The notes beneath the pieces were generated by a model, which was not told where the DNA came from, ran no database searches, and saw nothing but the letters and a program-made list of their open reading frames with translations. A DNA stretch of 54,052 nucleotides. It comes from Pseudomonadota bacterium. Its GTDB lineage: Bacteria; Pseudomonadota; Gammaproteobacteria; Burkholderiales; Burkholderiaceae_C. The stretch spans positions 1-54,052 of the forward strand of contig JBEEJQ010000001.1 of the NCBI GenBank assembly GCA_041169105.1, read 5' to 3'. The stretch's first letter is position 1. The number at the start of each line of letters is the position of its first letter. A program made the position numbers and the translations under genes. Shown here one piece after another: positions 8,536 through 51,347 of the stretch.

Positions 8536-9933
8536 TCAGCTGCCCGCCACCTTCATCCGGTTGACCAAGATGGAGCCCGTGGTTTTAGCGCCCATGTTGT
8601 AGGTGTCGGAGCCGATCGCTTCGATGCCCATGAACATGTCTTTCAAGTTGCCCGCAATAGTGATCTCATGCACCGGGTAGGCAATCTGGCCGTTTTCGAC
8701 CCAAAAACCGCTGGCACCACGCGAATAATCGCCCGTGACGTAGTTCACGCCCTGCCCCATCAGCTCGATCACGAACAGGCCAGTGCCCAGCTTTTGCAGC
8801 ATGGCGTCTAGGTCATCGCCAGCATGGGTCAGGCGAGAAGTCATCGTCAGGTTGTGCGAGCCACCCGCATTGCCAGTGGTCTTCATGCCCAGTTTTCGGG
8901 CCGAATAACTCGACAGGAAATACCCCTCGACCCGACCCCCTTTGACCACATGGCGCGCTGCAGAACGCACACCCTCGTCATCAAAAGGCGAGCTGCCTTT
9001 GCCACGCAGCACAAACGGGTCTTCGTGGATGTCGATGTGTTTGGGGAAGACTTTTTTACCCAGGGAGTCCAACAAAAAGCTGCTCTTGCGGTACAACGCA
9101 CCGCCGCTCACGGCCTGCACAAAGCCACCCAACAATCCCGCAGCGGCGGGTGATTCAAACAGCACCGGGCATTCGGTCGTGGCGATCTTGCGAGCGCCCA
9201 GGCGCGACAAGGCACGCTCGGCGGCGTAACGGCCCACCGCCTCGGGTGAGGCCAATTCATCGGCCGAACGCATGGAGCTGTACCAGGCGTCGCGCTGCAT
9301 TTCGGCGTTGCGGCCAGGCAGCTTGGCAATGGGCGCGACCGAAATGCTGTGGCGCGAACTGGCATAGCCACCGCGAAAGCCGTGGGTGTGGGCGCTGAAG
9401 AAATGGCTTTGCTGCGCTGACACGGCAGCGCCGTCGCTGTTGGTGATGCGGCGGCTGGTTTTGAGCGCGGCCGCTTCGCATTGCAGGGCCAGCTTGGCCG
9501 CTTCCTCGCTGTTGATGGACCATGGGTGAAACAGGTCCAGCTCGCGGTATTGAGTCTCAATGTCGGCCTCGTCGGGCAAGCCGGCGGTGGGGTCTTCGGC
9601 GGTGAAGCGGGCAATGTCAAACGCGGCTTGCACCGTGCGCTCGATGGCGGCTGTGGAAAAGTCCGAGGTGCTGGCATTGCCACGGCGATGCCCCACATAG
9701 ACCGTCACGCCGAGCGACTTATCGCGGTTGCGCTCCACGTTTTCCAGCTCGCCCTTGCGCACGCTGACCGACAGGCCGCAGCCTTCGGAGGCTTCCGCAC
9801 CGGCATTGGTGGCGCCCAGTTTCTTCGCATGGTGCAAGGCGGTGTCGACCAAGGACTCGAAGTGGTCACGCGAGTAGCTGAAACCATCGTGCGGCTCAGA
9901 ATTGGAAGCTTTGGCGGGTGCGTTTGGGTTCAC
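8536..9933 (-). CDS. pmbA: Metalloprotease PmbA (TldE)
   Basis: SVSVRKGELE, PFDDEGV, GNAGGSHNL, ELMGQGVNYVTGDYSRGASGFW, EITIAGNL; start uncertain (GTG 9933 chosen). Confidence 0.9.
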   Translation of the reverse strand: MNPNAPAKASNSEPHDGFSYSRDHFESLVDTALHHAKKLGATNAGAEASEGCGLSVSVRKGELENVERNRDKSLGVTVYVGHRRGNASTSDFSTAAIERTVQAAFDIARFTAEDPTAGLPDEADIETQYRELDLFHPWSINSEEAAKLALQCEAAALKTSRRITNSDGAAVSAQQSHFFSAHTHGFRGGYASSRHSISVAPIAKLPGRNAEMQRDAWYSSMRSADELASPEAVGRYAAERALSRLGARKIATTECPVLFESPAAAGLLGGFVQAVSGGALYRKSSFLLDSLGKKVFPKHIDIHEDPFVLRGKGSSPFDDEGVRSAARHVVKGGRVEGYFLSSYSARKLGMKTTGNAGGSHNLTMTSRLTHAGDDLDAMLQKLGTGLFVIELMGQGVNYVTGDYSRGASGFWVENGQIAYPVHEITIAGNLKDMFMGIEAIGSDTYNMGAKTTGSILVNRMKVAGS

Positions 9934-40742: not shown

Positions 40743-43700
40743 TCAATCAAGCGAACCGTTCTTTGAACGAAACCGCGAATACACCTCTTTCGAAATCCAG
40801 TCCGTCACCAGGTTCTGGAAGCTCTTCTCGTTCATGAACCGCGCAAAGATATCTTCGTTTTGCTCCATGCGCTCAATGAACAAGGTTTGCAGCAGGCTTG
40901 AAAAAAGCAGCGAGAACTTTTCTTCTGGATTGGCTGCAGCGGCTTCGCCCAAAGACGCGTCGCCAATCGCTGCTTCGATGATCTGGTCAAAAAACAACTG
41001 ATCTGCGTCGGTGAAGTCGGTGCCAAAACGATCATTCAGCGAGTCGATCAAGCGCGACAAAGGCGTTTCTTCCTCGCGCTGCAAACCTGAACCCACATCG
41101 CGCGGACCATCCAGTGGGTTGCCTTTGCCATCGCGCAGGCTGATGGAACCCTCACTGATTTTTTGCAGTCGGTAGTACTCCAGCCGAACTTCATCATCAA
41201 AGTCATAGCGTGGGCCGCTCTCGCGTCGAGGCAGCTTGGTGGATAGAAAACGAAGGTAGGTGTAGAGCCGCTCCAAATCAGAGTCTTGATACGGTATGAC
41301 TTGCGACAAAAATGCGTACAAATTGCGAAAAGCCTGCAGCTTGCCACGCCAAAGCTCTGCCGCCTCTTCTTCTGTTCGCTGCAGATCGCGGAAACGATCA
41401 ACAGCCATGTCCAGCGCCGCATTCATAGCTTGGTGGTCTGCGGGGCTCTGTCGTTGGCGGGGTTTGAAGTACACCGCAATAAAACGCTCAACCTCGTCGT
41501 GTGTGTAAATGCCACTTGCGTCAAGTTCTGCCTTAATGGAGTACATCTGATTCGGGTCAGCCTCTTCGCCCATTTCTGCGCCGTCAAAATAGTCTTTGAA
41601 TGCTTGGCGAATTTCCTCCCGGTCATTCACAAAATCCAACACGAAAGTGTCTTCCTTCAAAGGGTGCATGCGGTTCAAGCGCGACAGTGTTTGCACCGCT
41701 TGTATGCCCGCCAGTCGCTTGTCCACATACATGGTGTGCAACAGCGGCTGGTCAAAACCTGTCTGGTACTTCTCGGCTACCAGTAACACTTGGTAGTCTG
41801 GCCCGCCAAACGCTTCTGGTAATTCGGTTTCCTTCATACCGCCGTTCATGGCGGACTCGGTATAAAGCTTGTCGGGCACCAATTCGTCTTGCACCTGGCC
41901 AGAAAAAGCCACCAGCGTCTTGATCCAGCCATACCCCTTTTCTCGGATGTAGGCATCAAACGCCAGCTTGTAGCGAACAGCCTCTAGGCGTGAGCCTGTC
42001 ACCACCATCGCCTTGGCTTTGCCGCCCAGTTTGTGATGAGTCACAGCGTTGAAGTGCTCCACCATCACCTCTGTCTTTTGGGCAATGTTGTACGGGTGCA
42101 GTCGCATGAAGCGCGCCAGCGCCTTGGCCGCTTGTTTGCGCTCGACGTTGGGGTCGGTCTCGCTGGCGTGCACCAATTTGTAATAAGTGGCGTAGGTGGT
42201 GTAGTGAGCCAACACATCCATGATGAAGCCCTCTTCAATGGCTTGCCGCATGGTGTAGCGGTGAAATGCGTGCCCCGTGCCGCTGGCTGTGCCATCGGCC
42301 CCGCGACCAAACACAGCCAGTGTTTTGTGCTTTGGCGTGGCGGTGAACGCGTAAAAGCTGATGTTGGCCTGCCGCCCACGCTTGGCCATGCTGCGGTACA
42401 GCTCGTCTAGATCCTTGGTGCCCTCTTCTGCGGCGTAGCGAGCAGCCTCTTCACGCAAAACATTCCCACCCAAAACTTCTTTCAGGTCTGTTGCTGTTTC
42501 GCCCGACTGCGAACTGTGCGCCTCGTCAATGATGACGGCGCAGCGCCGCGTGGGCAGCACGCCCTCGCCACCTTCACCCCGCTCTTCGGCCATCTTGAGT
42601 AACTGGCGTGTGACGAAAGGGAACTTTTGCAGCGTAGAAATGATGATGGGCACGCCTGTTGTCAGCGCCTCGGCCAGCTGGCGTGAATCCTCGTCAATTT
42701 TTTGCACCACGCCTTGGCGGTGCTCAAACTGATAGATCGTGTCTTGCAGCTGCTTATCCAGCACGCGGCGGTCGGTGATGACGATCACCGAATCAAACAC
42801 CTTGTGGTCTGACGCATCGTGCAGCGACGCCAAGCGATGCGCCAACCAGCCGATGGTGTTGCTCTTGCCACTGCCAGCCGAATGCTCGACCAAGTAGTTA
42901 TGGCCTGGGCCTTCTTGCTTGGCTGCGGCCTCCAACGCACGCACCGCTTGCAGCTGGTGGTAGCGCGGAAAAATCATGGTCTCTTTGCGGATCTTGCGGC
43001 CGTCTTCTGTGCGACGCTCTTCCTCTTGCAAATGCATAAAGCGGGCGAGGATGTCCAGCAAGCTGTCGCGCTGCCAAACCTCTTCCCACAAATAGGCTGT
43101 GCGGTAGGCTCGGCCATGCGGGTCGGGCGGGTTGCCTGCACCACCATCGTGCCCTTGGTTAAACGGCAAAAAGTGCGTGGCGCTGCCCGCCAACCGCGTG
43201 GTCATGAACACCTCTTCGGTGTCTACTGCAAAGTGCACCAGCGCTCGGCGCTTGAACTCAAACAGCGGCTCGCGGTGGTCGCGATCTTGCTGATACTGCG
43301 CAATGGCGTGGCGCACCGTCTGCCCAGTCATGGCGTTTTTCAGCTCAGCGGTGACGACAGGGATGCCGTTGACCGATAAAACCAAATCCAACTCATTGGT
43401 GTTGCGTTGGCTGTAACGCAGCTGACGTGTCACGCCCATGCGGTTAGCTGCGTACTGAGCAGCCAGCTCGGGGTTCATGCCGTGCGCAGGCTTGAAGAAC
43501 GCCACGCGCAGTGTGCGGCCATGGCACTTGAAACCATTGCGCAGCACAGCCAGTGTGCCGTGGTGGTCTAACCAGTGCGTGAGGTCTTTGAGAATCTGGG
43601 TTTCGGTTTGGGCACCGTTCAAAGATTCCAAACGCGCCCATTCTTTGGGTTGGGTAGCGCGAATGAAGGTGAGAGCTTCTTGTGGAAAAAAGTTATTGGA

Positions 43701-43796
43701 CAGGTCATAGATGGACTTGTCTAAGGGCAAGTATCCGTTGGCGAGTAGCGTGGCCTCGATGGTGGATTCGAAGGATGTTTCGTCGTGGCGGCTCAA
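40743..43796 (-). CDS. hsdR: Type I restriction endonuclease subunit R
   Basis: D-x-NGIP-x-ELK nuclease motif, HSAGSGKS, IIDEAHSSQ, FTATPK, YQTGFDQP, QTLSRLNR. Confidence 0.95.
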   Translation of the reverse strand: MSRHDETSFESTIEATLLANGYLPLDKSIYDLSNNFFPQEALTFIRATQPKEWARLESLNGAQTETQILKDLTHWLDHHGTLAVLRNGFKCHGRTLRVAFFKPAHGMNPELAAQYAANRMGVTRQLRYSQRNTNELDLVLSVNGIPVVTAELKNAMTGQTVRHAIAQYQQDRDHREPLFEFKRRALVHFAVDTEEVFMTTRLAGSATHFLPFNQGHDGGAGNPPDPHGRAYRTAYLWEEVWQRDSLLDILARFMHLQEEERRTEDGRKIRKETMIFPRYHQLQAVRALEAAAKQEGPGHNYLVEHSAGSGKSNTIGWLAHRLASLHDASDHKVFDSVIVITDRRVLDKQLQDTIYQFEHRQGVVQKIDEDSRQLAEALTTGVPIIISTLQKFPFVTRQLLKMAEERGEGGEGVLPTRRCAVIIDEAHSSQSGETATDLKEVLGGNVLREEAARYAAEEGTKDLDELYRSMAKRGRQANISFYAFTATPKHKTLAVFGRGADGTASGTGHAFHRYTMRQAIEEGFIMDVLAHYTTYATYYKLVHASETDPNVERKQAAKALARFMRLHPYNIAQKTEVMVEHFNAVTHHKLGGKAKAMVVTGSRLEAVRYKLAFDAYIREKGYGWIKTLVAFSGQVQDELVPDKLYTESAMNGGMKETELPEAFGGPDYQVLLVAEKYQTGFDQPLLHTMYVDKRLAGIQAVQTLSRLNRMHPLKEDTFVLDFVNDREEIRQAFKDYFDGAEMGEEADPNQMYSIKAELDASGIYTHDEVERFIAVYFKPRQRQSPADHQAMNAALDMAVDRFRDLQRTEEEAAELWRGKLQAFRNLYAFLSQVIPYQDSDLERLYTYLRFLSTKLPRRESGPRYDFDDEVRLEYYRLQKISEGSISLRDGKGNPLDGPRDVGSGLQREEETPLSRLIDSLNDRFGTDFTDADQLFFDQIIEAAIGDASLGEAAAANPEEKFSLLFSSLLQTLFIERMEQNEDIFARFMNEKSFQNLVTDWISKEVYSRFRSKNGSLD

Positions 43797-44527
43797 AGTT
43801 TGCCCCCATTTGCCAGGTTGTCAGGGTTCGGTGCCGGCTGGATTGGAAGTCCAGATGTCGGGTCGAAGCAACCACTGCCTCGCGTGCCTGGAAAGGCGTT
43901 GATTAAACGCAGCCGCATGTCGGTGTCTGATGCAAAAACAATCATCCAAATACTGAAGAAGCCTTCTGCCACGGCAGTTCGAACAGCTCCTCGCCGCACA
44001 GCTTCGTTGCCGGGGTTGTCGTCCACATCTTGCTTCGTATCTAGGGCGATACCCCAAAGGTCCATTCGCTGCGAAACACGATCCAGCGCTACCTGCTTGC
44101 CGTTCTCGTCCAGTACTTCCGAAATCGGCTTATCAAGACCAACCAACTGCAGCAAACTGTCTGCCTTTGGTCGGCAGATGGCGGGGACTGACATAGCAAC
44201 ATTTATTTGCCCATCGGCAAGATAGTCGTATGCCATCGCCGTGTTGTCTCTATCGGGCAGAAGAGCCTCAGACAACACAACGTCCTTATTCTTCTTTGTC
44301 GAGTTGCAGTTAACACACCCAAGTAGAAAGTTGTCCCAGCGCCCCGCCAGTGGCTCATAGGCCTTCAAGCCCTTCGGCTGGATGTGCTCGACGGCTAGAT
44401 TGGTTTGGACGCGGCGTTCGCAGTAGCTGCAATATCGACCTAGTCTCGAAACTAGAAAGGGCTTCGCATCCTCATAGTTGGCGAAGTCAGTTGCTTGGGG
44501 CGAGTCTCCGCGCTGTATCGGCCGCAT
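43793..44527 (-). CDS. HNH endonuclease, PtuB/Septu-like
   Basis: MRPIQRG, LGRYCSYCE, AVEHIQPK, WDNFLLGCVNCNSTK; 3 nt after the ATPase stop and overlapping the hsdR start. Confidence 0.85.
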   Translation of the reverse strand: MRPIQRGDSPQATDFANYEDAKPFLVSRLGRYCSYCERRVQTNLAVEHIQPKGLKAYEPLAGRWDNFLLGCVNCNSTKKNKDVVLSEALLPDRDNTAMAYDYLADGQINVAMSVPAICRPKADSLLQLVGLDKPISEVLDENGKQVALDRVSQRMDLWGIALDTKQDVDDNPGNEAVRRGAVRTAVAEGFFSIWMIVFASDTDMRLRLINAFPGTRGSGCFDPTSGLPIQPAPNPDNLANGGKL

Positions 44528-44530
44528 CTT

Positions 44531-45970
44531 TCATTCTCCCAGCTTGGCTGCGCGCTTCAACTCAAGGAACGCTTGATAAGCTGGGTTGTGCGCGTAGGGC
44601 CCGATGGCGTCGGCCAATCGCGTCTTGTAGGCATCCAGCTTGTCGCGTGGAGCCATTGCGGCGGCTTCCAATATTTCTAGATAGTTGCGAGCAACTACAC
44701 GCATGTCCTCGTAATCCTTACCCACTTCGGTGTTCTCAACTCCCATAAGGCCGCGCGCGATTTCATCCACGGGCATGTGACCAACGTCAGCGGTGGGCTG
44801 TCCGTCAAGCACGATCAGTTCCTCACCGCTGCGCAGTGACTGAATCAAAAACGGCGAATGGGTAGTGCAGATGAACTGCAGCATCGGGAATGTGCGCCGC
44901 AAATCACCGATGACGCGTCGCTGCCATTTGGGGTGCAGGTGCAGATCCAACTCATCAATCAGAACAACCCCCGGTGTCAACTCCAGCGCCCGCTCTGCCA
45001 ATTGCGGGTTGAGCATGGCGGCCTTGATGGCCAGATCAGCGGCGATGGCAACCACGTTACGGTATCCATCACTCAACTCGCTAAAGGTGTGGCGCTCGCC
45101 GCTTTGGTACTTCAGCACCAGTGTGCGTAGTTTGGTGCTGTAGCGGGCAGAGGCAATTTCCGGAAGCATGGCCTCGATTGCCCGATATACCAGCCGCAGT
45201 GCGGGGGATGAGTCTTCCTCGTCAAGTTCGTTGCGTCGCTCTACACCCATCCAACGAATCAGGTCGTTGGGGTTACAGCGTTTATCAACACTCATCCGGT
45301 AGCCGTAAAAAGGCTCGGACAAACGATTAAAGTCATGCAGAAACTTGTCTAACTCGTCCGCATCATCGGCCAGCTCAGCGGGTTGCTTCCCCTTGTGTTT
45401 GCTAAGCGCTTTGCCCGATGTGTCACGAACTGATTCCCAAAGACGGCCCGCGCCGAAATAGCGGATCAACGGCAGCACGCATGGCTTTTGATTCATAACG
45501 GCGTCTGCCATAGCTTCTGCGTATTTCTTCAGATCAGCGGCATTGTTTCGCGTGGTTCTGCCACCCTGCCCTTCCACTGAACGTTCCCAACGCACAGACA
45601 CATCGCGCGGGTTCGGTTTGTCAGCGTTAGCGGGTGGGAGGTAAACGATCTCGTCGTCCGATGCAGCCCGCCCAACCCGGGCGATGTGCAACAACCCTGT
45701 GGCTGTGACCCGCACAGGGTATTGCGGCAGCTCGCGGTAGCGCTTTTCCACAAACTCCAGCACATGACGCACGTCGCGATCCCAGATGTTGCGTGAGTCA
45801 TGGCCGCGAAAGCCCAGCAACCACGAACCGATGGCGACAGCCGCCGCTTCGAGAAACGAAGTTTTACCGCTGCCGTTTTCACCAATCACGAGATTGAACT
45901 GAGGATGCAAGTTGAATTCGCGGTCCACATAGCCACGGAAGTTCTGTAAACGCAGCGTCTCAAGGCGCAT
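44531..45970 (-). CDS. ABC/AAA ATPase, PtuA/Septu-like
   Basis: LQNFRG, Walker A GENGSGKTS, signature LSDGYR, Walker B LIDELDLHLHPKWQR, H-loop TTHSP. Confidence 0.88.
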   Translation of the reverse strand: MRLETLRLQNFRGYVDREFNLHPQFNLVIGENGSGKTSFLEAAAVAIGSWLLGFRGHDSRNIWDRDVRHVLEFVEKRYRELPQYPVRVTATGLLHIARVGRAASDDEIVYLPPANADKPNPRDVSVRWERSVEGQGGRTTRNNAADLKKYAEAMADAVMNQKPCVLPLIRYFGAGRLWESVRDTSGKALSKHKGKQPAELADDADELDKFLHDFNRLSEPFYGYRMSVDKRCNPNDLIRWMGVERRNELDEEDSSPALRLVYRAIEAMLPEIASARYSTKLRTLVLKYQSGERHTFSELSDGYRNVVAIAADLAIKAAMLNPQLAERALELTPGVVLIDELDLHLHPKWQRRVIGDLRRTFPMLQFICTTHSPFLIQSLRSGEELIVLDGQPTADVGHMPVDEIARGLMGVENTEVGKDYEDMRVVARNYLEILEAAAMAPRDKLDAYKTRLADAIGPYAHNPAYQAFLELKRAAKLGE

Positions 45971-47210
45971 ATGAGGTCTCCTCTTTCAACTGGTTATTTT
46001 GCATGTTTGCCTTGCCGCTGATGGCCGCTGCAATCAGCGCCGTTCTCCGCTCCTCGAGCAACTCAACAGTGTCTTTGGTCGCACGGCTCAGCGTATCGAT
46101 GTGCTGAATTTGATGTGCAATTTCTCGAACGATTTGCGCCTGTTCTTCGAGAGGCGGCACAGGCATTGACGCTTCGTACAAACCTTCTGGGTATAAGCGC
46201 ATTCGAGATGACCAGACCCCTTTGGAATAGCGCGTGATCTCGGTGACGAACATAGGTGTCCGTACAAGGTAGTCGAGGTAGTCGGGGTCAAACGCTTGCG
46301 TTGGACGGTAGACGTTGTAGGCGGGGCTCACGATGCCGTCGTGGCGGGCAACGCCCATCGCACCCATCCATGCCCAAAGTGTGTTGATGACCAAATCGCC
46401 AGCGCGGCAACGCTTGTAACCTTCGTTGGTCTCAGCCAAGAACATGTTCACATCTTTTTCAGAGCGTTTCGTGACACCAGTGAGGTGCGACACAGTGAGC
46501 AGTTCCTCGGAACCATCTTCTGATCTATCGTCGATTTCTTTGAACACCCAGCGAGTGTTTTCTGTTTGCCAATGGGCGGGTATTTGACCCAGCCAATCGA
46601 TACCTGAGTCGCGCACGGGTACATCCGGATTCAGCCCCCGCTTGACGGCGTTGGCGATGAAGGTGCGGCGCTTTTCGCCCAGCACGTCCAAAAGGTGCTG
46701 CTTTGCGTTGATTAATGACTCAATTTGGGTGGTCTGCTCGCGCAAGCGATTAACGACCTCGATCTGAAGCGCCAAAGGTGGAACCGGAATCTCGATGTTG
46801 CCAATGTCTGCCCAATCTGCGCGCGGCATCTTTGAACCAAACGTAGTGGTGTCAACTTCGAGGATGAAATCTGGCGACAACAATACTCGGCACAAGTAAT
46901 CGCTAGTGATACAAGGATTGGGCCTGAGCACCAACGCCTCAGTGGTGCAGGCTCCGGCAAAGGTAGATACCCAGGCCTTGGCTAAATAGGGGCGCAACTT
47001 CCCGAACAGAACGTCACCGCTGTCGAACAGATTGACTGTGCTGGTGCCGTCGGCAAACTCCTCATCCACCAAACCCTGCGTGCTCAAGAGCTTGCCCGTT
47101 TTAGATTGAATATTTTCAAGACCGACATACGCTGAACCATCTGGTCGGGAATCTGCTCGTGCGCCGACAAGCGTTGCTGCGTACTTGAGCTTCAGCTTGG
47201 GCCAAGTCAT
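45960..47210 (-). CDS. hsdS: Type I RM specificity subunit S
   Basis: Two TRDs with repeated IPVPPLALQ and MPVPPLEEQ, central DSGIDWLGQIPAHW, terminal RTALIAAAISG. Confidence 0.92.
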   Translation of the reverse strand: MTWPKLKLKYAATLVGARADSRPDGSAYVGLENIQSKTGKLLSTQGLVDEEFADGTSTVNLFDSGDVLFGKLRPYLAKAWVSTFAGACTTEALVLRPNPCITSDYLCRVLLSPDFILEVDTTTFGSKMPRADWADIGNIEIPVPPLALQIEVVNRLREQTTQIESLINAKQHLLDVLGEKRRTFIANAVKRGLNPDVPVRDSGIDWLGQIPAHWQTENTRWVFKEIDDRSEDGSEELLTVSHLTGVTKRSEKDVNMFLAETNEGYKRCRAGDLVINTLWAWMGAMGVARHDGIVSPAYNVYRPTQAFDPDYLDYLVRTPMFVTEITRYSKGVWSSRMRLYPEGLYEASMPVPPLEEQAQIVREIAHQIQHIDTLSRATKDTVELLEERRTALIAAAISGKANMQNNQLKEETSYAP

Positions 47211-49114
47211 TGCGTACCCTCCACCGCCCGATAAGCCTGCCCCGGATCATTCGGCTCCTCCGGCCGTGTCATCACCAGTCGGCCATCACGCATCAGCGGG
47301 CGCAGGTAGTTTTGCCGCACCACCTCCGGGTTGCGGCGCAATACCAAAGCCAGTTCGTCCACCGGCCAGTCGCGCAGGCTGCACAGTGCCACCACCAAGT
47401 CTTGTACTTCTTGGGGTGGGTGCCGCTGGCCAATGGCCCCTAGCCTTGCGGCCAAAGAGCCGGGCAGTTCGTCTAGCAAGGCGGCGCGGGCTGTGTCTTG
47501 CGCATTGGTTTGGGGCTTGCTAGTTAACTCACTGGGCTTACTAGATAAGGCGCTGGGGTTACTAGATAAGCCATGGGGGTTGCTAGATAAGGGGCTGCTT
47601 GCCCCTTCTGCCAACGCTTGTTGACCCAGGCCGAGGCGTTCGGCAGGCACATAGTAAGTGGCCGAGCCACGGCCTTTTTGCACCAGCAGGCCCGCATCGC
47701 GCAGGCGGCGCAAGGCGGCGCTGGCGCTGTGGGTGTCCACCTTGTTGAGGGTGCGGTAGTTGGCGTTGTCAATGGCCCCTGCCTCGCGCACCACCACCAG
47801 GGCTTTGGCTTCGTCGGGGCTGAGCTGGGCGTCTTTGAACTGGGCCAACCAAGCCACGTCGTCGGCCCCCAAAAAATGGTGAAAGAAGTAGCGGGCCACA
47901 AACTGGTCGTTGCCCCGGTCAGATTCAAACAATGGCGGGGTCAGCCCAGCCTGCTCCATGGTGTCGCGCATCACACGGATGCCGCTGCCTTTGGTTTCGG
48001 CAAAGCGAGTTTCGTGCAACACGGCGGCAATGCGCGGGTTACGCGGTTCGCTGCCGGGCTCGCCCAAGTGCTCAGGCGACTTGAGCGAGAAGCCGGGGTT
48101 GCGAATTTCCAGCCGGTTGGCATAACGGATGATTTGCACCGGGCTGTGGCTGCGGTAGCTGCGGTGCATGAGGGCGTTGACCAGCGCCTCGCGAATCACG
48201 CGCTGAGGGATGACGGGTTTGTCTTGGCGTTGCAGGTCGCCTTCTTTGAGGGCAAAGCCTTTGGGCAAGTCATCCAGCACGGCGGCTTGGGCACGGCGGA
48301 TCAGCCGAAACAAGGGGTCGCGCAGTTCGATGGTGTCAAAGCGGCGCTCGGGATCTGGCACCCAGTCGCGGCCGGGCACGCGAATGTAGTCCACCCGCGT
48401 CATGGGAAAGCACCGACGCAAAGCCTGCGCCGTACCAAAGAGCATGATGCCCGCCACGGTAGGGCGTAAGTTGCCTTGCTCGTCTTTGCTGATGCACCCC
48501 AGTGCGCGCAGCAATTCTTCGTCAGTCCAGCGCAGTTCTTCGGCATCGGGGTTGGCGTCGGCTCGGGTTTTGCGGTAATCGGCAAGTGCTTCGGTGGCGA
48601 TGTCGTCCAGCGTGGCGTCGGGCACCAAGCTGGCATCAAAGCTTTCGCGCTGGCGGCCTTGGTAGAAAACGGCCAAGTCATCGTCGGTACAGTGTTGGTC
48701 CACACTGCCCACGCGGCGCAGTGCACCTTTGGGCAGACCTTGGGCTTTGAAAAAAACGGGTTTGTCTTGCGGCTGCGCCTCAGGCACAAAAGCCACCACC
48801 ACGGCCAGTCCGTTGACTTGCTCGGTACTGATTTCTATGCGCACGGGCAGGTTGAACGTTTCGCGGCATTGGGTGGCCAAGTCGGCGCACAGCTTGTCGG
48901 GCTGCGGGACGCCTTCAACTTGGTAGCTTGGGAAAAGTGCCTGGTCTTCGCGCTCCACGCCCAGCAACAACCAGCCGCCGCCCAAGCCGGGCTCGTTGGC
49001 AAAGGCGCACACTGTTTCCAACAGCGATTTGCCGGCCTCGCTGGCGCGTTTAGCCTCAATGCGCTCGGTTTCGTCGAGCAGGTTCAGGCTTTGCAGGAGT
49101 TCCAGTGCGGTCAT
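47207..49114 (-). CDS. Schlafen/AlbA_2 domain + HATPase_c_4 (RecG-C-like) + winged-HTH protein
   Basis: ETERIEAK (ExxxxExK), TVCAFAN..GGWLLLGV, REALVNALMHRSY, RLEIRNPG, RNPRIA, ETKGSGI, C-terminal HTHs. Confidence 0.8.
   Translation of the reverse strand: MTALELLQSLNLLDETERIEAKRASEAGKSLLETVCAFANEPGLGGGWLLLGVEREDQALFPSYQVEGVPQPDKLCADLATQCRETFNLPVRIEISTEQVNGLAVVVAFVPEAQPQDKPVFFKAQGLPKGALRRVGSVDQHCTDDDLAVFYQGRQRESFDASLVPDATLDDIATEALADYRKTRADANPDAEELRWTDEELLRALGCISKDEQGNLRPTVAGIMLFGTAQALRRCFPMTRVDYIRVPGRDWVPDPERRFDTIELRDPLFRLIRRAQAAVLDDLPKGFALKEGDLQRQDKPVIPQRVIREALVNALMHRSYRSHSPVQIIRYANRLEIRNPGFSLKSPEHLGEPGSEPRNPRIAAVLHETRFAETKGSGIRVMRDTMEQAGLTPPLFESDRGNDQFVARYFFHHFLGADDVAWLAQFKDAQLSPDEAKALVVVREAGAIDNANYRTLNKVDTHSASAALRRLRDAGLLVQKGRGSATYYVPAERLGLGQQALAEGASSPLSSNPHGLSSNPSALSSKPSELTSKPQTNAQDTARAALLDELPGSLAARLGAIGQRHPPQEVQDLVVALCSLRDWPVDELALVLRRNPEVVRQNYLRPLMRDGRLVMTRPEEPNDPGQAYRAVEGTQ
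47513..47596 (-). repeat. Four degenerate 21-bp tandem units encoding a 7-aa LSS(N/K)P linker
   Basis: GGG(C/G)TT(A/G)CTAG(A/T)TAA-N5 at 47513, 47534, 47555, 47576. Confidence 0.85.
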
Positions 49115-51102
49115 TGGGCCTTCGCTTCGGCAGTGACTTCACTCAGCAGTCGCAAAATTTCAGCCTCGGCCTTCTTCAGGTCGGCATCAATGTCGGCCAG
49201 TGGGCGCGGCGGTGTGAATTTGTAGAAATGACGGTTGAAGTTGATTTCATAGCCGACCTTGGTTTTGTCGTGGGCTATCCAAGCGTCTGGCACATGAGGG
49301 ATGACTTCGCGCTGGAAGTATTCGTTCATGTTGACCTTGAGGGGGACGTTTTCAAAGTCACGCAGCGCAGCGTCGGCTTCATACTCAACTTGTTTGCCTG
49401 TCTGTTTGAGTATGACGGGCTGGGCGCTTGGGTCGACTTGGGTAAACGCATCACGAAAGGCTTTGGCTTGGGGTGCACGCCATTTGCTTTCACGTTGTTT
49501 GAGCACAGTTTGCGCACGCGCCCAGATGCTGTTCCAGTCGAACGACTCATCTCTGCCAATCGCGGCATCAATGGCTTGTAGGTCATCCAGCAAATTGGGG
49601 CACGCATCGAGAAAGCGTTCTTTGCCTTGCAGTGTGATTTGAAACTTCAAACGCAATGGGCGCTCAATGGTGAGGCGGTGGTAGCCAAAGTCATCGTTAT
49701 CAAACACTTTGCAGGTGTCGCTGGGCGTCATAGGCCCGTACTCTTGCACGATGTCTTTGATGTTCTGATCCGAAAACTCGCGACGCTTGTCTCCCAAGCT
49801 GCGGCGCAGAGGCTGCCAACGGTCACGTGCATCCACAAGTTGAATCTTGCCCTTGCGTCGTTGCTCTTTGCGGTTGGTCACGATCCAAATGTAGGTGCCA
49901 ATGCCCGTGTTGTAGAACATCTGCTCGGGCATGGCCACGATGGCTTCAAGCCAGTCGTTTTCAATGACCCATTTGCGAATTTCACTTTCGCCAGAGCCTG
50001 CGCCACCCGTGAACAGGGGCGATCCGTTGAACACAATGGCAAGGCGTGAGCCGTCTTTACCTTCGGCGGCATCTACGGGTTCGATCTTGCTGAGCATGTG
50101 CTGCAAAAACAGCAGTGCACCGTCATTGACACGCGGCGTGCCTGCGCCAAAGCGGCCATTGAATGCCTGCTTTTCGTGCTCACGAACCACGTCTTTTTGT
50201 TGGCGTTTCCAGTCCACGCCAAACGGCGGGTTGGCCAAGAAGTAGTCGAAGCGTTGACCCACAAATTGGTCATCTACCAATGTGTCGCCAAATCGTATGG
50301 TTGAGGTCTCTGGGTCTTTGGGGTTGCTGCGCATCAGCAGGTCAGATGCCGCCACCGCGTATGAGCGTTTGTTGAAATCTTGGCCATGCACATACAACCG
50401 CGCGCCCATTTGGTGTTCGCGCAGGTAGTTGCGAGCCTCCGAGAGCATGCCCCCCGTTCCACAGGTTGGGTCCAGCAGGGTGCGAACTGTGTTGGGTTTT
50501 GTCAGCAGATCGTCGTCGTGCATGAACAACAAGTTCACCATGAGTTGAATCACTTCACGAGGGGTGAAGTGATCACCAGCCGTTTCGTTGGCTTGCTCAT
50601 TAAATCTGCGAATCAGATCTTCAAACAACAAACCCATGTCGATGTTGTCCACCGATTGGGGATGCAGGTCAACTTCGCAAAATTTACGCACCACGAGGAA
50701 CAAGATGTTGTGCTCGTGCAACCGCTTGATTTCGTCACTGAAGCTGAAGTAATCAAAAATGCGCTGAACGTTTTCGGAGAAGCCGTTGATGTAGCTTTGT
50801 AGATGTAAATGGACGTGATCTGGGTCGCCCAGCAAGCGCTCGAACGTCAGTGGCGAGTGATTGTGAAAGCGCTGGCCTGAAACTTGGTTGAGCACGCCAT
50901 CTAGCGCTTCACCGTGGTGCTTGCCGCCAAGTTTGGCGAACTTGTCCAGCACAGCCTGTTTTGTGGGTTGCAGCACGCAGTCGAATCGGCGCAAAACCAC
51001 CAGTGGAAGCATGACTCGTTCGTACTGAGGCGGCCGGTATGGGCCACGCAGCAGGTCGGCGATGCTCCAAATGAAGTTGGACAGTTCGTGGCTTTTGCTC
51101 AT
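49111..51102 (-). CDS. hsdM: Type I RM methyltransferase subunit M (N6-adenine)
   Basis: FIWSIADLLRG, GDHFTPREVI, LDPTCGTGGML, LANPPFG, NGSPLFTGGAGSGES, FYNTGI. Confidence 0.95.
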   Translation of the reverse strand: MSKSHELSNFIWSIADLLRGPYRPPQYERVMLPLVVLRRFDCVLQPTKQAVLDKFAKLGGKHHGEALDGVLNQVSGQRFHNHSPLTFERLLGDPDHVHLHLQSYINGFSENVQRIFDYFSFSDEIKRLHEHNILFLVVRKFCEVDLHPQSVDNIDMGLLFEDLIRRFNEQANETAGDHFTPREVIQLMVNLLFMHDDDLLTKPNTVRTLLDPTCGTGGMLSEARNYLREHQMGARLYVHGQDFNKRSYAVAASDLLMRSNPKDPETSTIRFGDTLVDDQFVGQRFDYFLANPPFGVDWKRQQKDVVREHEKQAFNGRFGAGTPRVNDGALLFLQHMLSKIEPVDAAEGKDGSRLAIVFNGSPLFTGGAGSGESEIRKWVIENDWLEAIVAMPEQMFYNTGIGTYIWIVTNRKEQRRKGKIQLVDARDRWQPLRRSLGDKRREFSDQNIKDIVQEYGPMTPSDTCKVFDNDDFGYHRLTIERPLRLKFQITLQGKERFLDACPNLLDDLQAIDAAIGRDESFDWNSIWARAQTVLKQRESKWRAPQAKAFRDAFTQVDPSAQPVILKQTGKQVEYEADAALRDFENVPLKVNMNEYFQREVIPHVPDAWIAHDKTKVGYEINFNRHFYKFTPPRPLADIDADLKKAEAEILRLLSEVTAEAKAQ

Positions 51103-51347
51103 TTTTTAGTTAATTAATTGAATCTCATTGATCAAAAATGGCAAATCATTTGATTTGTATGGGGACAACGACATCTAGCCCGCTATTGTATGTACCGGGA
51201 CACGACAGCTACAACCCAAACTGAATTGCAAAACTTGCATCTGTTGAACGAGGGATCAAGGTCAAGAATTAGACCCGTCACGGTAATTTTCGACCTGCAA
51301 AGACACTGGCCGTGACAAATACCCAAATGTGAAATAAACCGCCGTAC

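What the first reader, a model, noticed from the sequence alone, without database searches (positions are those of the whole stretch)
43793..45970. Septu/PtuAB-like ATPase + HNH pair in the PrrC slot, without a retron
Seen: intact Walker A, LSDG signature, DELDLHLHP.WQ, TTHSP, and an HNH with CxxC...EH...N...CxxCN, located exactly between hsdS and hsdR; no reverse transcriptase and no room for msr-msd. Established: PtuAB act in Septu and as toxic effectors restrained by retron RT-msDNA in Ec78/Ec83-type systems. Inference: here the Hsd complex may replace the retron as the restraint or sensor, so the nuclease fires when RM is inhibited. This RM-guarded PtuAB is my best candidate for an undescribed system in the window.
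Basis: partly seen in the sequence, partly recalled or inferred. Interest (0 to 1): 0.85.

Follow-up and report, generated by a model that had tools for sequence, protein, structure and literature searches.

The report
Septu passenger in type I restriction
An intact two-gene Septu anti-phage module (ATPase plus HNH nuclease) sits inside a type I restriction-modification operon; close relatives keep intact Septu genes without the restriction genes, so it is likely a self-controlled second defence layer rather than a toxin held in check by the restriction enzyme.

Summary
In detail: intact ptuA (44531-45970) and ptuB (43793-44527) lie between hsdS and hsdR in a tightly packed six-gene operon, with no reverse transcriptase found in the 88%-complete genome. 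They are Septu type I (PADLOC 416 and 256 bits; best fold match E. coli Septu; no retron N-terminal extension). The obligate guard reading is poorly supported. None of 14 close relatives in the ATPase tree has hsd neighbours, and one relative has lost hsdM-hsdS and keeps only a decayed hsdR stub while ptuAB stay under purifying selection. HsdS has no tether extension. Near-identical operons in two other studies keep this Septu lineage in place. Best reading: a self-regulated Septu co-inherited with, and swapped within, one RM lineage; optional synergy stays open. Embedding in RM loci is described in print, and this scan noted the same layout before on other DNA.

The parts
44531..45970 (-). 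ptuA, Septu ABC/SMC-type ATPase, 479 aa, no retron-type N-terminal extension
   Evidence: PADLOC PtuA1 PDLC00278 416 bits; best PDB sequence match 8ee4 PtuA from residue 1; model pLDDT 87, top 10 Foldseek rows are E. coli Septu entries 8eea/8ee4/8sux; motifs
43793..44527 (-). ptuB, Septu HNH nuclease, 244 aa
   Evidence: PADLOC PtuB1 PDLC00315 256 bits; Pfam HNH; CxxC, EH, N and CxxCN invariant in a 28-sequence alignment
45960..47210 (-). hsdS, 416 aa, ordinary length, no added C-terminal domain; overlaps the ptuA start by 11 nt
   Evidence: PADLOC Specificity_I 257 bits; C-termini compared; gap
40743..43796 (-). hsdR, 1017 aa, TTG start overlapping the ptuB stop by 4 nt
   Evidence: Pfam HSDR_N, ResIII, SWI2_SNF2; AELKN, GSGKS and DEAH motifs present
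49111..51102 (-). hsdM, 663 aa
   Evidence: PADLOC MTase_I 893 bits; DPTCGTGG and NPPF motifs
47207..49114 (-). second embedded gene between hsdM and hsdS: Schlafen/AlbA_2 + HATPase_c_4 + Fic-like C domain, 635 aa
   Evidence: Pfam; 73-89% identical orthologues in the same position or directly before hsdS in L024, L090, L239, L240, L241

Best explanation
This is an intact Septu type I pair inside a type I restriction-modification operon, and it likely works as a self-regulated second layer of anti-phage defence that travels with the restriction genes but does not need them to stay safe. Shown: gene identity, intact motifs, operon packing, no retron parts. Inferred from other Septu systems: PtuA likely oligomerises and holds PtuB, nuclease output is likely damped by ATP or gated by a phage protein, and infection likely releases DNA nicking or tRNA cleavage that stops phage growth. 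Inferred from comparison: one HsdM/HsdR lineage has long carried Septu in its hsdS-hsdR slot; the cassette is likely exchanged by recombination between conserved flanks, and copies are sometimes left behind when the hsd genes are deleted.
For: Septu membership by profile, sequence and fold. The window PtuA sits in a supported 18-row clade whose 14 distinct other members show no hsd neighbour; 10 of them have long flanks, and a Pfam scan of 47 neighbouring ORFs from 12 of these loci found no RM gene. 5 of 10 genomes of stand-alone relatives gave no HsdR match, and the best match in the rest was 58%. L006 matches embedded locus L090 in the upstream HTH gene and in ptuAB (93% and 87% protein identity) but lacks hsdM-AlbA-hsdS and keeps a decayed hsdR 5' stub; codon changes specific to L006 are 47 synonymous to 3 non-synonymous in ptuA and 15 to 7 in ptuB. 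L057 and L159 show similar stubs. Slot ATPases of this HsdR clade are 22-60% identical to each other and are rejected as one clade. No added HsdS domain and no clade-specific HsdR insertion. 48 of 68 informative genome loci of this PtuB subfamily have no RM nearby.
Against: Septu fills the slot in 7 of 11 HsdR-selected loci at 62% identity or more, and in 0 of 44 below that; pure chance occupancy of a hotspot does not predict this. Near-identical operons in two other studies keep the same Septu lineage at the hsdS and hsdR junctions (runs X3, X11), as does L083 (HsdR 92%), so the very closest relatives are embedded. 19 of 68 informative genome loci are RM-linked. Intact stand-alone ORFs show neither expression nor activity, and several come from incomplete assemblies. 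The context of the closest PtuB proteins (82-84%) could not be fetched.
Confidence: 0.66

Rival explanations
1. Optional coupling: Septu is safe and active alone but gains a trigger or synergy from this RM lineage. It might sense anti-restriction proteins directly (as PARIS does), or respond to DNA breaks or ATP drain caused by HsdR activity, so selection keeps refilling this slot with Septu-type pairs.
For: Lineage-specific occupancy 7 of 11 versus 0 of 44; slot pairs come from at least three PADLOC PtuB models (PDLC00315, 00346, 00322) and at least six places on the ATPase tree; one further clade member holds another ABC-ATPase effector (L284). Stand-alone PtuAB nicking falls as ATP rises (stated in PMC12819146). 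That HsdR burns ATP heavily is recalled, not from a call.
Against: An old single acquisition followed by fast divergence, recombination and escape gives the same pattern; kin are not independent. 4 of 11 clade members hold other cargo (IrrE-DUF4411, IetAS, Fic, an OLD-like ATPase). No RM-specific feature was found in PtuA or the Hsd proteins.
Confidence: 0.24
2. Obligate PrrC-like guard: the Hsd complex binds and silences a toxic PtuAB, which fires when the restriction enzyme is inhibited.
For: Same slot as prrC, which is almost only found embedded in type I RM (preprint 10.1101/2024.01.29.577857); overlapping reading frames; lineage-specific association.
Against: Unlike PrrC, most of this subfamily is not RM-linked (48 of 68); intact ptuAB under purifying selection after hsd loss; ATPases only 23-28% identical to the window's sit beside HsdR proteins 81-92% identical to the window's, which fits badly with a co-evolved inhibitory interface; no tether on HsdS.
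Confidence: 0.07
3. The pair is an inactive or silent passenger.
For: No functional data; the signature reads LSDGY rather than the LSDGQ of 39 of 60 aligned relatives in which the motif was found.
Against: All catalytic motifs are intact; the Y is shared by 12 aligned sequences, and E. coli Septu also lacks the Q (PMC12819146); dN is far below saturated dS against L002 and L003.
Confidence: 0.03

Closest known systems
Septu type I (PtuA/PtuB; E. coli structures 8EE4/8EEA/8SUX; Septu Ec-B88)
   Same: Two adjacent genes, ABC ATPase then HNH nuclease; best PADLOC, PDB-sequence and fold matches; no RT; no N-terminal extension.
   Different: Only about 24% identical to the solved E. coli PtuA; sits inside an RM operon; target (DNA or tRNA) and trigger unknown.
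Type I-A retrons (Ec78/Eco7, Ec83; PADLOC Septu type II)
   Same: PtuA/PtuB effector family.
   Different: No RT in the genome searched, no ncRNA space, PtuA lacks the roughly 63-residue N-terminal extension that binds RT; below the NCBIfam cut-offs for retron PtuA (166 of 500) and PtuB (32 of 150).
PrrC with EcoprrI (RM guard)
   Same: ABC-ATPase-based effector in the hsdS-hsdR slot of a type I RM locus.
   Different: PrrC is one polypeptide with a tRNA anticodon nuclease, almost always embedded, and toxic when over-expressed alone; this is a two-gene HNH system whose subfamily is mostly not RM-linked.
[quoted passage not shown]
   Same: Known system nested co-directionally inside another; Septu is named as commonly embedded in Hma.
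   Different: The passages read do not name Septu in type I RM, nor a single HsdR lineage enriched for it; Figures 6D and S8 could not be seen.
MADS MAD3-MAD4 (PMC13662399)
   Same: ATPase-nuclease pair encoded within a methylation-based defence operon and required for its function.
   Different: MAD4 is TOPRIM-like, the operon has eight fixed genes, and the window PtuA scores 25 against a cut-off of 420 for MAD3.

Membership tests
Septu type I | ptuA ABC ATPase directly followed by ptuB HNH nuclease, both matching Septu models | tested here: met
   PADLOC PtuA1 416 bits and PtuB1 256 bits; 3-nt gap
Septu type I | Intact Walker A, signature, Walker B/D-loop, H-loop and HNH residues | tested here: met
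   invariant columns
Septu type I | No associated reverse transcriptase | tested here: met
   RVT_1 not found in the 88%-complete genome
Septu type I | PtuA fold closest to stand-alone PtuA | tested here: met
   Foldseek ranks 1-10 are 8eea/8ee4/8sux; retron PtuA from rank 11, by a small margin
Septu type I | Hexameric PtuA assembly and anti-phage activity without partners | not testable with these tools
   needs experiment
Type I-A retron | RT and msr-msd upstream of ptuA | tested here: not met
   hsdS overlaps the ptuA start; no RT; no Rfam match
Type I-A retron | PtuA N-terminal extension that binds RT | tested here: not met
   query residue 3 aligns to residue 66 of retron PtuA 9kjx but residue 1 to residue 1 of 8ee4; feature defined in PMC12819146
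PrrC-type RM guard | Encoded inside a type I hsd locus | tested here: met
PrrC-type RM guard | Family found almost only inside type I RM loci | tested here: not met
   48 of 68 informative genome loci without RM; 0 of 14 distinct close relatives in the tree with hsd neighbours
PrrC-type RM guard | Physical binding to the Hsd complex | not tested
PrrC-type RM guard | Toxic without Hsd; activated by anti-restriction proteins | not testable with these tools
   indirect evidence against from hsd-loss relatives
Type I RM | hsdM, hsdS, hsdR with intact methyltransferase, nuclease and helicase motifs | tested here: met

The most novel reading that the evidence does not exclude
One lineage of type I RM enzymes is a dedicated host for Septu: it keeps refilling its hsdS-hsdR slot with unrelated Septu pairs because the restriction enzyme's activity or its inhibition supplies the trigger, making RM a third control mode for PtuAB beside stand-alone and retron control, and this lineage seeds stand-alone Septu loci when its hsd genes are deleted.
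Probability: 0.2. Interest if true: 0.7.

Novelty: new member of a known kind. Interest (0 to 1): 0.3.

Why it matters
As it stands this is an ordinary Septu in a known kind of nested defence locus. The useful additions are a defined HsdR lineage with strongly biased, exchangeable Septu cargo, and natural with-and-without-hsd pairs (L090 and L006) that make the guard question cheap to test. If RM activity or inhibition proved to trigger Septu, it would address the open question of what activates Septu and extend RM guarding beyond PrrC and PARIS.

Tried and rejected
Retron remnant: no RT in the genome, no Rfam match, no intergenic space. HsdS tether (lead from earlier scan notes): no added domain here; HsdS of the clade ends normally, while 590-660-aa HsdS occur only in a separate cyanobacterial R-M-S-ptuAB group. 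Clade-specific domain in HsdR or HsdM: none beyond one 5-residue indel in HsdM. Single RM-embedded PtuA clade: rejected. hsd remnants beside the window's own close stand-alone relatives: none convincing; L002 was marginal (37 versus a shuffle maximum of 31) and not confirmed at protein level, so the direction of movement for the window's own clade is not settled. Promoter and terminator scan: nothing above shuffles. Repeats bounding the cassette: none evident. Viral contigs: 1 distant PtuB locus and 4 distant HsdR loci; phage records: no HsdR above 60%. Family search around G506 gave no new clade member. Expression: no RNA holder listed, which is no evidence either way. Complex prediction of HsdS with PtuA: tool not available, so binding is untested. 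The primary PtuAB structure paper (DOI recalled) is not held; statements about it come from citing papers. Literature searches listed no paper on Septu controlled by type I RM; only open papers are searched, and bioRxiv supplements were closed.

Full report
Observation. The operon reads hsdM, an AlbA/Schlafen-HATPase gene, hsdS, ptuA, ptuB, hsdR with gaps of -4, -4, -11, +3 and -4 nt. No RT family match exists in the 88%-complete genome and no Rfam family in the window. One public contig covers hsdR to hsdS without a difference (that run may be the source).

Identity. PADLOC assigns PtuA1 (416 bits) and PtuB1 (256 bits), the Septu type I models. The best solved relative by sequence is stand-alone E. 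coli PtuA 8ee4, aligned from residue 1, whereas retron PtuA aligns only from its residue 66; that N-terminal extension is the RT-binding element absent from stand-alone PtuA (PMC12819146; abstract, Main, Discussion and passages read). An AlphaFold2 model (pLDDT 87) ranks E. coli Septu chains first to tenth, retron chains from eleventh, by a small margin. Lacking a retron is normal: about 7.6% of Septu systems had an RT in the PADLOC survey (PMC8565338, passages), and Septu Ec-B88 cloned alone protects and cleaves tRNA-Tyr (PMC13096335; abstract, first of four parts of Results and passages).

Seen from the Septu side. A 28-sequence PtuB alignment fetched the best 80 of 155 genome loci and 80 of 290 metagenome loci. 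I called hsd genes with profiles built from the hsd genes in these loci, so very distant hsd families could be missed. Of the 80 genome loci, 12 were too short; of 68 informative ones 48 had no RM, 1 had hsdR several kb upstream and 19 were RM-linked in three layouts. In a 127-row ATPase tree (FastTree; most short-flank loci and all fragments under 340 aa left out) the window protein lies in a supported 18-row clade whose 14 distinct other members show no hsd neighbour, 10 with long flanks and 4 with short ones. A Pfam scan of 47 of 83 listed neighbour ORFs from 12 such loci found mobile-element, housekeeping and other defence-like genes but no RM gene. Of 10 genomes holding stand-alone relatives, 5 gave no HsdR match and the best other match was 58%; completeness was not given. 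Against this, the very closest relatives are embedded: L083 has a 92%-identical hsdR right after ptuB; run X3 carries the whole operon from 40771 to 51104 at about 94-95% DNA identity, with one contig joining hsdR, a more diverged ptuB and the end of ptuA, and another joining the start of ptuA to hsdS; run X11 bridges both junctions. The context of the top PtuB proteins (82-84%) could not be fetched.

Natural loss of hsd genes. L006 matches the embedded locus L090 in the upstream HTH gene and then directly in ptuAB; hsdM-AlbA-hsdS are absent and about 70 nt of decayed hsdR follow the ptuB stop. Its ptuA and ptuB are 93% and 87% identical to those of L090, all motifs are intact, and changes specific to L006 are 47 synonymous to 3 non-synonymous in ptuA and 15 to 7 in ptuB; when on the branch the deletion happened is unknown. 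L057 and L159 also have hsdR-like stubs in the overlapping frame, and L130 and L052 have hsdM or hsdS scraps upstream. An obligate restraint should not be lost this way. These loci belong to sister lineages, not to the window's own clade, where no convincing remnant was found.

Seen from the RM side. Searching genomes with the HsdR N-terminus alone (401 order, 401 phylum, 401 family, 23 and 355 further genomes, plus viral contigs; only the best 30 of 35 loci were returned) gave 61 loci besides the window. At 62% identity or more, 11 of 13 had upstream DNA and 7 of these 11 held Septu in the slot; the others held IrrE-DUF4411, IetAS, Fic or an OLD-like ATPase. Below 62%, 0 of 44 informative loci had Septu within 1.5 kb, and none of those read with long flanks had it further up; they held PDC-S14/S15/S35, GmrSD, small toxin-antitoxin genes or nothing. 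The top plasmid hit (HsdR 71%) also has hsdM-hsdS-ATPase-HNH-hsdR. Fisher's p is 1.6e-6 but overstated because kin are not independent. All these Septu-bearing slots fall in one 17-row HsdR clade (SH-aLRT 100, quick tree of 50 rows, two distant HsdRs left out, L284 not included). Yet the slot ATPases are 22-60% identical to each other, and only 23-28% to the window's in the four HsdR-selected loci with 81-92% identical HsdR. They span three PtuB models, and their monophyly is rejected (AU p 2.6e-95, 14 against 24 rows; the group was defined by HsdR but tested after I had seen the larger tree). HsdS has no added domain and HsdR no clade-specific insertion.

How it most likely works. Shown: a complete RM system with two embedded cargo units, one of them an intact Septu type I. 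Inferred from other Septu systems: PtuA and PtuB form a self-controlled complex that is triggered in infection and nicks DNA or cuts a tRNA; reported targets differ between systems (PMC11555353, passages), so the target here is unknown. Inferred from comparison: embedding gives shared expression and joint transfer; cassettes are exchanged between related RM loci through conserved flanks, which the mosaic divergence in X3 fits; and hsd loss can leave working stand-alone copies (0.66). The biased occupancy could instead reflect optional synergy with this RM lineage (0.24). An obligate PrrC-like guard is unlikely (0.07).

Comparison with what is known. Embedding of defence genes in type I RM loci is described, Septu is named as embedded in Hma, PrrC as almost exclusively RM-embedded, and backup defence is offered as one benefit (bioRxiv 10.1101/2024.01.29.577857; passages and one Results section; its figures and supplements, which may list Septu in RM loci, were not visible). 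PrrC and PARIS are the recognised RM guardians (PMC12707154, passages). MADS is a methylation-based operon with a required ATPase-nuclease pair (PMC13662399; abstract and Introduction). Eight literature searches listed no paper on RM control of Septu or on this HsdR lineage. Earlier unchecked notes of this scan report the same layout in at least six other genomes; they are not independent evidence.

Verdict. A real, intact Septu type I in a known kind of nested locus: new member of a known kind, interest 0.3. The lineage-specific, exchangeable Septu slot and the natural hsd-deletion pair are the parts worth following.

Noticed in passing
window 47207-49114 (-): A second embedded gene (Schlafen/AlbA_2, HATPase_c_4, Fic-like C domain) between hsdM and hsdS travels with this RM backbone (73-89% identity in L024, L090, L239, L240, L241) and contains a short 21-nt tandem repeat at 47513-47596; a possible further defence effector.
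   Followed up: partly
L006 3317-5900 versus L090 3110-10770: Natural deletion of hsdM-AlbA-hsdS and decay of hsdR leaving an intact Septu behind an HTH gene; a ready-made test pair.
   Followed up: yes
L017, L019, L038-L040, L058, L117, L121, L144, L151, L158: A cyanobacterial group with the layout hsdR-hsdM-long hsdS (about 560-680 aa)-ptuA-ptuB forms one tight PtuA clade; a better candidate for real RM-Septu coupling than the window.
   Followed up: partly
L085 5047-6876: A reverse transcriptase fused to a trypsin-like protease lies about 300 bp after a close stand-alone ptuB relative; it resembles a protease-type retron (label recalled) rather than a type I-A one.
   Followed up: no
L025 2738-10580: A close Septu relative is cargo behind TniA/TniB/TniQ transposon genes.
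   Followed up: no
L284 3792-5708: A member of the same HsdR group holds a 639-aa single-chain ABC ATPase of OLD-like size in the slot (OLD label from my reading of the sequence; Pfam AAA_15 only), and its HsdR is 1188 aa.
   Followed up: partly
L246 3570-9248: Slot holds both Septu and IetAS; its close relative L247 has IetAS only.
   Followed up: partly
window 8944-9018 (-): tRNA-Gln beside a lower-GC stretch (about 7-15 kb), a possible integration site; unrelated to the finding.
   Followed up: no
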